This document shows, in pieces, positions 55,546 to 55,803 of a stretch of DNA of 63,616 bases. A model generated the notes under the pieces. It ran no database searches. It saw nothing but the letters and a program-made list of their open reading frames with translations, and was not told the DNA's origin. Location of the stretch: positions 1 to 63,616 of the IMG/VR virus record IMGVR_UViG_3300011114_000226; one strand, written 5' to 3'. Both the position numbers and the translations under genes were made by a program. This DNA comes from a virus (lineage: Duplodnaviria; Caudoviricetes). Positions within the stretch are counted from its first letter, which is position 1; each line of letters opens with the position of its first letter.

Positions 55546-55577
55546 AAGGGACCTGCTTAAAACACAGGTCCTTTTTT
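55546..55577 (+). terminator. Terminator after the major capsid gene
   Basis: GGACCTG-loop-CAGGTCC followed by TTTTTT. Confidence 0.8.
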
Positions 55578-55623
55578 CATGGTTTTCTCTATAGCACTAT
55601 TAATCGTGCGGGTCATAATACGG

Positions 55624-55644
55624 TTATACACACGGTGTGTATAA
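55624..55644. promoter_or_regulatory. Perfect 10-1-10 palindrome upstream of pqqA
   Basis: TTATACACAC-G-GTGTGTATAA, just downstream of the -10-like CATAAT at 55614-55619. Confidence 0.55.
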
Positions 55645-55662
55645 AATTTTAGGAGAACTACT

Positions 55663-55734
55663 ATGTGGACTAAACCAGCAGCTACAGAAATGAGATTTGG
55701 CTTTGAAGTAACTATGTACGTAATGAACAAGTAA
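55663..55734 (+). CDS. pqqA: Coenzyme PQQ precursor peptide PqqA, 23 aa
   Basis: [23 protein letters not shown], with the W-x-x-P N-terminus, RFGFE and the E-x3-Y core; AGGAG RBS at 55651. Confidence 0.95.
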   Translation: [23 protein letters not shown]

Positions 55735-55774
55735 TGGTTATCGTAACAGACTGCTATTAATTTAGTACTGAATT

Positions 55775-55803
55775 AGGGGGCTTAATGCCCCCTTTTTCTT
55801 TTT
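55775..55803 (+). terminator. Terminator after pqqA
   Basis: AGGGGGC-TTAAT-GCCCCCT followed by a T run. Confidence 0.85.

What the first reader, a model, noticed from the sequence alone, without database searches (positions are those of the whole stretch)
55546..55803. Phage-encoded PQQ precursor peptide (pqqA) in a self-contained cassette behind the capsid gene
Seen: a 23-codon ORF, [23 protein letters not shown], below the ORF-track cutoff. It has an AGGAG RBS, a -10-like CATAAT and a palindrome upstream, and intrinsic terminators on both sides, like a moron. Established: PqqA is the ribosomal precursor whose Glu and Tyr (E-x3-Y, here EVTMY) are cross-linked by PqqE/PqqD and matured by PqqB/C and a protease. 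One peptide is consumed per PQQ, the cofactor of MxaF/XoxF methanol dehydrogenases. From memory the peptide closely resembles Methylophilaceae PqqA. Inference: the phage supplies only the stoichiometric substrate of a host RiPP pathway (no pqqB-E is present) to sustain PQQ and methanol oxidation during infection. This would be a 72-bp auxiliary metabolic gene that also predicts the host. How novel it is needs a literature check.
Basis: partly seen in the sequence, partly recalled or inferred. Interest (0 to 1): 0.92.

Follow-up and report, generated by a model that had tools for sequence, protein, structure and literature searches.

The report
Phage-borne PQQ precursor gene (pqqA)
A complete 63.6-kb phage genome carries a real, stand-alone 23-codon copy of pqqA, the peptide that methanol-eating bacteria turn into the cofactor PQQ; many unrelated phages of these bacteria carry it, but virus-borne pqqA has been noted in print before.

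Summary
The ORF at 55663..55734 (+) scores about twice the curated cut-off of both PqqA models. Its peptide is identical to the commonest Methylophilaceae PqqA (81 of 124 host matches). The window is a complete phage genome with terminal repeats. I found no pqqB, pqqD or pqqE, no PQQ-dependent dehydrogenase and no integrase; a family search for pqqC was uninformative, but a host PqqC found nothing by tblastn.

The gene sits in a roughly 235-bp insert between the capsid terminator and the next gene's promoter. Of 66 close capsid relatives, 4 carry it, and carriers cluster on the capsid tree. Stand-alone pqqA also occurs in at least 194 IMG/VR contigs and in nine cultured methylophage records, where it is unannotated.

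Best reading (0.75): an auxiliary metabolic gene that supplies the consumable PQQ precursor. Expression and PQQ output are untested. Viral pqqA was already listed in two metagenome papers, so this is a new member of a known kind. Interest is moderate.

The parts
54608..55522 (+). Major capsid gene (context; the cassette lies directly behind it)
   Evidence: PHROG 371 major head protein, E 5.9e-21. Capsids 83-99% identical occur in at least 600 IMG/VR stretches.
55548..55577 (+). Capsid-gene terminator: 7-bp G+C-rich stem, 9-nt loop, TTTTTT
   Evidence: Read. The scan missed it because its loop limit is 8. An equivalent terminator is present in relatives without pqqA.
55614..55619 (+). -10-like box CATAAT, 4 nt before the hairpin; no convincing -35
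   Evidence: Read. The promoter scan did not call it. In 18 of 30 distinct sister cassettes a TANNNT box lies just upstream of the hairpin.
55624..55644 (+). Perfect 10-bp inverted repeat around one base; predicted stem-loop at the 5' end of the transcript
   Evidence: 9-pair hairpin in both the MFE and the centroid fold. A stem of 5 or more pairs occurs in 29 of 30 sister cassettes, with 21 different hairpin sequences.
55651..55655 (+). Shine-Dalgarno AGGAG, 7 nt before the ATG
   Evidence: A Shine-Dalgarno-like motif is present in 30 of 30 sister cassettes.
55663..55734 (+). pqqA, 23 codons plus stop; Glu15 and Tyr19 are the cross-link pair
   Evidence: The peptide is identical to 81 of 124 Methylophilaceae matches.
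55775..55803 (+). Cassette's own intrinsic terminator (AGGGGGC..GCCCCCT plus T-run)
55821..55848 (+). Promoter-like site of the next gene (TTGCAA, 16 nt, TATTAT); not part of the cassette
   Evidence: The homologous region follows the capsid terminator directly in relatives without pqqA.
55857..55924 (+). Conserved, apparently pseudoknotted 5' UTR of the next gene (side observation)
   Evidence: No Rfam family reached threshold.
55938..56519 (+). Next gene, 193 aa, no family match (context)

Best explanation
This is a functional, phage-maintained copy of pqqA that acts as an auxiliary metabolic gene.

Proposed mechanism:
- A small transcription unit was inserted between the capsid terminator and the next gene's promoter. 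It consists of a -10-like box, a 5' stem-loop, a Shine-Dalgarno site, 23 codons and its own terminator.
- It yields a short mRNA that encodes a peptide identical to the host's own PqqA.
- In an infected Methylophilaceae cell the host's PqqD and PqqE would bind the peptide and cross-link Glu15 to Tyr19. Host peptidases, PqqB and PqqC would then finish PQQ.
- PQQ is the cofactor of the XoxF and MxaF methanol dehydrogenases.
- The phage therefore keeps precursor supply, and with it methanol-derived energy, going while host transcription declines.

Shown here: gene identity, its intactness and conservation, its stand-alone state, and its lineage-wide retention in phages.

Inferred: transcription from its own promoter, processing of the peptide to PQQ, and a fitness benefit.
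For: Identity:
- 42.4 and 40.4 bits against curated cut-offs of 21.1 and 20.
- The E-x3-Y pair is present.
- The peptide is identical to the commonest Methylophilaceae variant, 81 of 124 host matches.

Genuine phage context:
- The record is a complete virus genome with terminal repeats.
- Terminase, portal and capsid genes lie just upstream.
- Contigs from DNA runs of two different studies bridge the capsid end into pqqA: X1 record 5 (55486-55713, 0 differences) and X2 record 29 (55418-55716, 3 differences).

Stand-alone state:
- Family searches of the window found no PqqE, PqqD, PQQ_2 dehydrogenase or tyrosine integrase.
- Host PqqB, C, D and E, confirmed by NCBIfam, gave no tblastn hit at E<=0.01 in the window or in 197 other viral loci.

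Selection on the peptide:
- 163 distinct viral coding sequences all stop four codons after Tyr19.
- At position 22, which neither search pattern fixed, 157 of 163 encode Asn, using both AAT and AAC.
- Phe14 is kept in all 75 loci of the general scan, whose pattern left that codon free.

Retention in phages:
- In 31 of 32 pqqA-bearing contigs with a related capsid, the gene lies 135-285 nt after the capsid gene on the same strand.
- On a capsid tree of 90 rows, presence needs only 3 changes (shuffled mean 24.1; 0 of 500 shuffles as low), and 24 of 28 carriers lie on one side.
- The Arg11 codon AGA, which the window has, occurs in 37 of 98 distinct viral coding sequences and in 0 of 103 distinct host ones. 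It occurs in 26 of 32 contigs of the window's group. These copies therefore evolve inside phages.

Breadth:
- These fall into at least 8 gene-content groups.
- Intact pqqA scoring 37-43 bits is present in Venkman, P19250A, MEP301, MEP401, Melnitz and MW202481.

Dosage logic:
- Methylophilaceae carry 3-12 pqqA copies but a single pqqBCDEFG cluster (PMC4109929, passages).
- I counted 6, 6 and 12 copies in three genomes.
- Of the host copies with enough flank to judge, 93 of 109 are not next to pqqB.
Against: - There is no direct evidence of expression. In the two RNA libraries laid, the contigs over pqqA carry mainly the other Arg codon (7813.9 of 7992.3 depth in X16; all of 105.5 in X15). They probably come from host or other phage copies.
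- The promoter scan called no + strand promoter for the gene.
- Most close capsid relatives do without it (62 of 66). One pqqA-less relative, a 55-kb contig, sits in a Methylophilaceae genome bin. The gene is therefore not essential for this phage type.
- Whether PQQ turns over fast enough within one infection for precursor supply to matter is not known.
- Other named methylophages did not appear among the hits: HIM624-A, phiMB624-A, MEP431-434, Venkman EXVC038S, MG-MTP1 and RSA-MFP1. I could not tell whether the collection holds them.
Confidence: 0.75

Rival explanations
1. The cassette acts at the RNA level. A short, stable transcript with a 5' stem-loop and a terminator would work as a small RNA, or as a sponge for a regulator of host pqqA mRNAs. 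The coding capacity would be secondary.
For: The unit resembles an sRNA gene, with a hairpin at the predicted 5' end and an intrinsic terminator. Upstream hairpins with perfect stems of 6 or more pairs are commoner in viral copies (65 of 109) than in host copies (23 of 116).
Against: Variation is concentrated in synonymous sites while the peptide, the start codon and the stop position are kept. The flanks, including the hairpin sequence, are not conserved: 21 different hairpins occur in 30 cassettes. A strong Shine-Dalgarno motif is present in 30 of 30.
Confidence: 0.07
2. It is a neutral passenger: a fragment of host DNA picked up by illegitimate recombination and not yet lost.
For: The cassette is absent from 62 of 66 close capsid relatives. 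The host carries many dispersed copies that could serve as donors.
Against: The gene is intact in 163 of 163 distinct viral copies. It is kept across capsids that have diverged to 82-83% identity. It is present in at least 8 unrelated phage groups. A codon variant is seen in phages only. Only the 72-bp gene and its Shine-Dalgarno site are shared with host DNA, with no host flanks.
Confidence: 0.07
3. The phage peptide is a decoy. It would occupy PqqD and PqqE and lower host PQQ synthesis, or be diverted to a product other than PQQ.
For: None directly. No phage-encoded partner enzyme is present that would show what the phage does with the peptide.
Against: The peptide is identical to the host's commonest PqqA, so it should be an ordinary substrate. 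The core [11 protein letters not shown] is conserved in phage copies just as in host copies.
Confidence: 0.04
4. The pqqA sequence serves as DNA homology for integration or recombination with host pqqA copies, in the manner of an attP site.
For: In Venkman, MEP301 and MW202481 pqqA lies among recombination genes and is antisense to its neighbours. Hosts have many scattered copies.
Against: No tyrosine integrase was found in the window. The gene lies in the structural module. It is also present in the T4-like Melnitz. The best identity to any host copy is 94.4% over 72 nt, and differences are spread over wobble positions, which is not what an att core looks like.
Confidence: 0.03
5. It is an assembly chimera or host contamination in the viral contig.
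For: pqqA is abundant in the same samples and could attract mis-joins.
Against: Contigs of two DNA studies bridge from the capsid gene into pqqA. Thirty-one other contigs show the same arrangement. Cultured, complete phage genomes carry the gene.
Confidence: 0.02

Closest known systems
Viral pqqA of Lake Baikal virus population VP_266 (Coutinho et al. 2020, PMC7678222; passages read)
   Same: A PqqA precursor gene on a viral genome predicted to infect freshwater methylotrophs. It was interpreted as an auxiliary metabolic gene that boosts methanol oxidation.
   Different: That genome was reported to carry a methanol dehydrogenase gene as well. The window has none. That paper did not describe the cassette architecture, the distribution across cultured methylophages or the presence/absence pattern. 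I could not compare sequences.
Orphan pqqA copies of Methylophilaceae chromosomes (Beck et al. 2014, PMC4109929; passages read)
   Same: The same peptide (81 of 124 host matches identical). A stand-alone small gene with its own Shine-Dalgarno site and terminator, not linked to pqqB (93 of 109 copies that could be judged).
   Different: The phage copies differ in three ways. They use the Arg codon AGA, which was not seen in host copies. They have lower GC3 (0.37 against 0.44). They more often carry a hairpin just upstream of the ribosome-binding site.
Classical phage auxiliary metabolic genes such as cyanophage psbA (from general knowledge, not from a call)
   Same: The phage carries a copy of a host component that turns over quickly, to keep energy metabolism running during infection.
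   Different: Here the product is not an enzyme or a structural subunit. It is the consumable substrate of a host peptide-modification (RiPP) pathway, and it is only 23 residues long.
Lambdoid-phage morons (from general knowledge)
   Same: An extra gene between two conserved genes, with its own terminator, present in some relatives and absent in others.
   Different: Its own promoter is not established. Presence is largely lineage-wide rather than sporadic.

Membership tests
PqqA (PF08042 / TIGR02107) | Score above the curated cut-off of the family models | tested here: met
   42.4 bits against 21.1; 40.4 bits against 20, an equivalog model.
PqqA (PF08042 / TIGR02107) | Conserved Glu and Tyr separated by three residues (the cross-link pair) | tested here: met
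   E15-V-T-M-Y19 in the translation. Both residues are invariant in all copies examined, but the search patterns required them.
PqqA (PF08042 / TIGR02107) | Very short ORF (about 20-30 codons) with a ribosome-binding site | tested here: met
   23 codons, with AGGAG 7 nt upstream.
PqqA (PF08042 / TIGR02107) | Genomic linkage to pqqBCDE | tested here: not met
   No pqqB-E in the window. This feature does not define the family in Methylophilaceae: 93 of 109 host copies that could be judged are also unlinked.
PqqA (PF08042 / TIGR02107) | Is converted to PQQ by PqqD, PqqE, PqqB and PqqC | not testable with these tools
   Needs complementation or PQQ measurement. The only support is identity to the host peptide.
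Auxiliary metabolic gene of a phage | Lies inside a bona fide viral genome between viral genes | tested here: met
   Complete record with terminal repeats. The capsid gene is 140 nt upstream. The junction is bridged in two DNA studies.
Auxiliary metabolic gene of a phage | Has a host homologue with a metabolic role | tested here: met
   The pattern hits at least 120 stretches in cellular genomes, nearly all titled Methylophilaceae. In 16 of them PqqB follows.
Auxiliary metabolic gene of a phage | Expressed during infection and alters host metabolism | tested here: inconclusive
   RNA-library contigs cover pqqA but mostly with another allele. Contigs cannot show transcription.
Moron | Own promoter and own terminator | tested here: inconclusive
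   The terminator was called. Only a -10-like box was found, and the scan called no promoter.
Moron | Present in some and absent from other closely related phages at the same site | tested here: met
   4 of 66 close capsid relatives carry it. The site is the same in 31 of 32 carriers.

The most novel reading that the evidence does not exclude
Stand-alone pqqA is a recurrent hallmark of phages that infect Methylophilaceae. Podo-, sipho- and T4-like myovirus lineages (at least 8 gene-content groups) acquired or exchanged it, and it evolves as a phage gene with its own codon signature. It has been overlooked in the deposited annotation of the nine cultured methylophage records that carry it. It would represent a distinct class of auxiliary metabolic gene, in which the virus supplies the consumable peptide substrate of a host peptide-modification pathway rather than an enzyme. 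The conserved 5' stem-loop would be a phage-specific device that makes the tiny mRNA long-lived. Because cultured phage-host pairs already exist, this can be tested at once.
Probability: 0.55. Interest if true: 0.62.

Novelty: new member of a known kind. Interest (0 to 1): 0.5.

Why it matters
- **Carbon flow.** Methylophilaceae (OM43 in the sea, LD28/Methylopumilus in lakes) are major consumers of methanol. If their phages keep PQQ synthesis going, then infected cells, which can be a large share of the population, continue to oxidise methanol. That bears on carbon-flow estimates.
- **A different kind of auxiliary gene.** The case shows that such a gene can be a 72-bp peptide-precursor gene. 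That is below the length cut-off of most gene callers and absent from PHROGs, so viral metabolic surveys will systematically miss genes of this kind.
- **Host marker.** The motif is almost confined to Methylophilaceae among cellular genomes. It assigns an uncultured branch of HTVC023P-like phages to that host family.

Tried and rejected
- **The search for related loci with the peptide.** It was rejected as too short. I used degenerate DNA patterns instead.
- **Expression from public runs.** Only assembled contigs were available. Those over pqqA in the RNA libraries X15 and X16 carry mainly another allele, so nothing can be said about transcription of this phage's copy. About 178 of 7992 depth units in X16 keep the window's base at 55693, but DNA carry-over cannot be excluded.
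- **Right-hand junction.** The right-hand junction (55713-55878) is not covered by any contig piece listed. No conclusion is drawn from that.
- **PqqC family search.** The search of the window was uninformative because the control genomes were silent too. I replaced it with tblastn using a confirmed host PqqC.
- **'Acinetobacter phage MD-2021a' hits.** I dropped the two hits. The locus is bacterial chromosome, with fur, ppk and pqqBCDE.
- **Clustering of viral loci.** Single-linkage clustering at 2 shared proteins merged nearly everything. Stricter thresholds were used, so the group counts are approximate.
- **Terminator detector.** My crude detector misses real terminators, including the window's own. 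Its counts are lower bounds only.
- **Host linkage through genome bins.** The result is ambiguous. One pqqA-less relative (G188:C13) and one pqqA-bearing fragment (G229:C147) lie in Methylophilaceae bins.
- **Structure or complex prediction.** Not attempted, because the peptide is under the 30-residue minimum.

Full report
**Observation.** The 23-codon ORF at 55663..55734 (+) exists and translates to [23 protein letters not shown].
- It scores 42.4 bits on Pfam PF08042 (gathering cut-off 21.1).
- It scores 40.4 bits on the NCBIfam equivalog model TIGR02107 (cut-off 20).

- AGGAG at 55651-55655, 7 nt before the ATG.
- CATAAT at 55614-55619.
- A perfect 10-bp inverted repeat around one base at 55624-55644.
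- A hairpin with a T-run at 55548-55577.
- A terminator at 55775-55803, which the scan also called.

The scan called no + strand sigma-70 promoter for pqqA. Folding 55624-55803 as RNA gives the 5' hairpin and the terminator hairpin in both the minimum-energy and the centroid structure. The overall z-score is a modest -2.12.

**What the window is.** It is a complete virus record of 63,616 bp with direct terminal repeats.
- Terminase, portal and major head protein genes lie just upstream of pqqA.
- Elsewhere there are a family-A DNA polymerase, an SNF2 helicase, a DUF927 protein, a PD-(D/E)XK nuclease, a lysozyme, two 2OG-Fe(II) oxygenases, four glycine-rich proteins in tandem and a 1673-aa protein with an LPD38 domain.
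- No tyrosine integrase was found.
- The nearest cultured capsids are those of three 65,014-bp phage records named for Planktothrix and Synechococcus (72.5% aa) and of the pelagiphages HTVC023P and HTVC027P (about 64%). No cultured methylophage belongs to this lineage.

**Stand-alone state.**
- Six-frame family searches of the window found no PqqE, PqqD or PQQ-repeat dehydrogenase.
- The PqqC family search was uninformative because its controls were silent.
- I therefore took a host pqqABCDE locus (L195). NCBIfam confirmed its PqqB (412 bits), PqqC (357), PqqD (98-104) and PqqE (524).
- tblastn with these proteins against the window and 197 other viral loci gave no hit at E<=0.01 (PqqB alone).

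**Origin and host.**
- A degenerate pattern for the peptide hit at least 120 stretches in one-genome-per-species cellular contigs. Nearly all shown titles are Methylophilus, Methylotenera, Methylobacillus, Ca. Methylopumilus, OM43-type or unnamed Methylophilaceae. A few are bins titled otherwise.
- The window's peptide equals the commonest host variant, 81 of 124 matches. The best nucleotide identity is 94.4%.
- Only 16 host copies are followed by pqqB. 93 with at least 600 nt of downstream flank are not.
- Three genomes held 6, 6 and 12 copies. This agrees with the 3-12 copies reported for the family (PMC4109929, passages).
- A 19.6-kb piece of the phage matched 355 of 361 Methylophilaceae genomes. 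Nearly all of the matches listed cover only pqqA and its ribosome-binding site, at 85-96% identity. No host flanks came with the gene.

**The cassette.** Relatives without pqqA read: capsid stop, terminator, A/T-rich promoter region, a conserved structured leader, next gene. In the window about 235 bp (roughly 55578-55810) are inserted after the capsid terminator. The upstream terminator is therefore the capsid gene's, and only the downstream one belongs to the cassette.

In the 30 distinct sister cassettes:
- The peptide and a Shine-Dalgarno motif are kept in 30 of 30.
- The upstream region differs in sequence.
- 29 of 30 have a perfect stem of 5 or more pairs upstream of the ribosome-binding site, ending 17-45 nt before the ATG.
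- These hairpins have 21 different sequences.
- 18 of 30 have a TANNNT box just upstream of the hairpin.

Conservation of a hairpin without conservation of its sequence points to an RNA stem-loop at or near the 5' end of the transcript. I infer that it stabilises the mRNA. Perfect stems of 6 or more pairs occur upstream of 65 of 109 viral copies. The figure is 16 of 108 for a control stretch further upstream and 23 of 116 for host copies.

**Distribution in this phage lineage.**
- Among the 80 closest capsid relatives (83-99% aa; at least 600 exist), 66 have at least 700 nt after the capsid gene, and 4 of those carry pqqA.
- Conversely, 31 of the 32 pqqA-bearing IMG/VR contigs with a capsid match have the gene 135-285 nt after a capsid gene of 82-100% identity, on the same strand. 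The 32nd, L004, has only a 39%-identical capsid 9.9 kb away.
- A quick maximum-likelihood capsid tree of 90 rows (28 carriers, 62 non-carriers) needs 3 changes of state. The shuffled mean is 24.1, and 0 of 500 shuffles are as low. Starred branches force at least 2 changes.
- Rows dropped before the tree: 14 without enough flank, 1 duplicate contig, and the loci with a partial, distant or no capsid match.
- 24 carriers lie on one side of a weakly supported branch (support 66).
- The cassette is thus mainly inherited within a sublineage, with a few extra gains or losses.

**Distribution beyond this lineage.**
- The strict pattern hit at least 119 IMG/VR contigs. A general PqqA motif added 75 more, with 43 peptide variants, all ORFs of 22-25 codons.
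- None has pqqB nearby.
- By shared flanking proteins the strict-pattern loci and the isolates fall into at least 8 groups: 36 like Venkman and MEP301, 32 like the window, 17, 8, 4 like P19250A, 3, and MEP401 and Melnitz alone.
- In the 50,697-record phage collection, tblastn found 12 records: nine named Methylophilales or Methylophilaceae phages (Venkman, P19250A, MEP301, MEP401, MEP402 and four Melnitz variants), one uncultured freshwater-spring virus, and two 'Acinetobacter phage' records that are bacterial chromosome.
- The six copies tested score 37-43 bits on PF08042.
- In the deposited records these copies are unannotated, or overlapped by a 'hypothetical protein' called on the opposite strand.
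- Other named methylophages did not appear among the hits. I cannot say whether the collection holds them.

**Selection.**
- The search patterns fix many residues, so only unconstrained features count as evidence.
- In 163 distinct viral coding sequences the stop codon is always four codons after Tyr19. Asn22 is kept in 157, and Ala7 and Thr8 in 137 and 138.
- Asn22 uses AAT and AAC about equally.
- Phe14 is kept in all 75 loci of the general scan.
- Arg11 is AGA in 37 of 98 distinct viral coding sequences and in 0 of 103 distinct host ones. It is AGA in 26 of 32 contigs of the window's group.
- Viral copies have lower GC3, 0.37 against 0.44.
- These copies have therefore resided and evolved in phages. 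They are not recent host contamination.

**Assembly check and expression.**
- Contigs of two DNA runs from different studies bridge the capsid end into pqqA: X1 at 55486-55713 with 0 differences, and X2 at 55418-55716 with 3 differences. X1 may be the source sample.
- Two lake-water RNA libraries hold contigs over the capsid gene and pqqA. At 55693 and 55695 nearly all depth carries the CGT allele.
- Expression of this phage's copy is therefore not shown.

**Mechanism.** Established knowledge, not a call: PqqA is bound by PqqD, and PqqE cross-links its Glu and Tyr. The peptide is then trimmed and matured by PqqB and PqqC. One peptide is consumed per PQQ, the cofactor of the MxaF and XoxF methanol dehydrogenases.
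- The phage peptide is identical to the host's, no partner enzymes are phage-encoded, and the host family itself multiplies pqqA but not the enzyme genes.
- The best reading is that the phage adds precursor supply so that PQQ, and with it methanol-derived energy, is maintained during infection (confidence 0.75).
- The rivals all fit the data less well: an RNA-level role, a neutral passenger, a decoy, recombination homology, and an assembly artefact.

**Literature.** In every paper I read only the passages that matched my search terms.
- Viral pqqA is in print. It is reported for a Lake Baikal virus population predicted to infect methylotrophs (PMC7678222).
- It is listed among virus-encoded phosphate-solubilisation genes in reservoir sediments (PMC13188868).
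- A paper on mining ribosomal peptides mentions a bacterial PqqA family co-expressed with defence systems, which is not the same thing (PMC11118758).
- The main texts of four isolate papers contain no mention of a phage pqqA or PQQ gene: Melnitz (PMC9004378), MEP301 (PMC8024684), MEP401/402 (PMC10580990) and Venkman (PMC8163748).
- Searches found nothing further.
- The P19250A paper was not in the library. From recall, it does not mention pqqA.
- PHROGs has no family for the peptide.

**Verdict.** This is a real and well-supported phage pqqA, and a new member of a known kind.
- The cassette anatomy.
- The lineage pattern.
- The phage-specific codon signature.
- The breadth across methylophage lineages.
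- The fact that the deposited annotations miss the gene.

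Noticed in passing
window 55857-55924 (+), the leader of the gene at 55938-56519: A conserved structured leader with three helices whose arms interleave, that is, a pseudoknot. The helices are CCGGG 55857-61 with CCCGG 55883-87, TCATTAG 55871-77 with CTAATGA 55903-09, and CATACAA 55894-900 with TTGTATG 55918-24. 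The last arm abuts the Shine-Dalgarno site. In 41 distinct relatives the three helices occur as 4, 17 and 14 different arm pairs that stay complementary. No Rfam family reached threshold. It may be a translational operator of an abundant structural protein. The register was chosen by best fit, so the counts lean towards pairing.
   Followed up: partly
L002 (Venkman), L323 (P19250A), L324 (MEP301), L325 (MEP401), L326 (Melnitz), L001 (MW202481): All six carry an intact pqqA that the deposited annotation lacks. In Melnitz and MW202481 a 'hypothetical protein' is called on the opposite strand over it. In Venkman, MEP301 and MW202481 pqqA is antisense to its neighbours. In Melnitz it lies directly upstream of a tRNA-Leu gene.
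   Followed up: yes
window 55693-55695 (Arg11 codon of pqqA): The AGA codon is seen in 37 of 98 distinct viral pqqA coding sequences and in 0 of 103 distinct host ones. It could serve as a marker to separate phage from host pqqA reads in metatranscriptomes.
   Followed up: partly
L402 (CAKLQF020000010.1, 'Acinetobacter phage MD-2021a'): The 144-kb record labelled as a phage carries fur, ppk and pqqBCDE around its pqqA match. Here it looks like bacterial chromosome.
   Followed up: partly
L409-L411 (G188:C13, 54,979 bp): A whole phage-sized contig in a Methylophilaceae-family genome bin is syntenic with the window. 28 of 63 window ORFs match it, and the capsid is 86.8% identical. It has no pqqA behind the capsid gene. 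G229:C147, from another bin, is a fragment with the capsid end followed by pqqA.
   Followed up: partly
window 4841-9863 (+): Four consecutive paralogous genes (423, 423, 357 and 370 aa), each with a Gly_rich_2 domain, followed by an HNH endonuclease gene. The G+C content rises to 0.44-0.48 there.
   Followed up: no
window 32450-33620 (-): Two adjacent 2OG-Fe(II) oxygenase genes lie in the replication module.
   Followed up: no
window 55605-55818, runs X15 and X16: pqqA-like contigs reach very high summed depth in a lake-water RNA library (7992 at position 55693 in X16). Almost all carry the CGT allele. This would fit heavy representation of host or other pqqA copies, but contigs cannot measure expression.
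   Followed up: no
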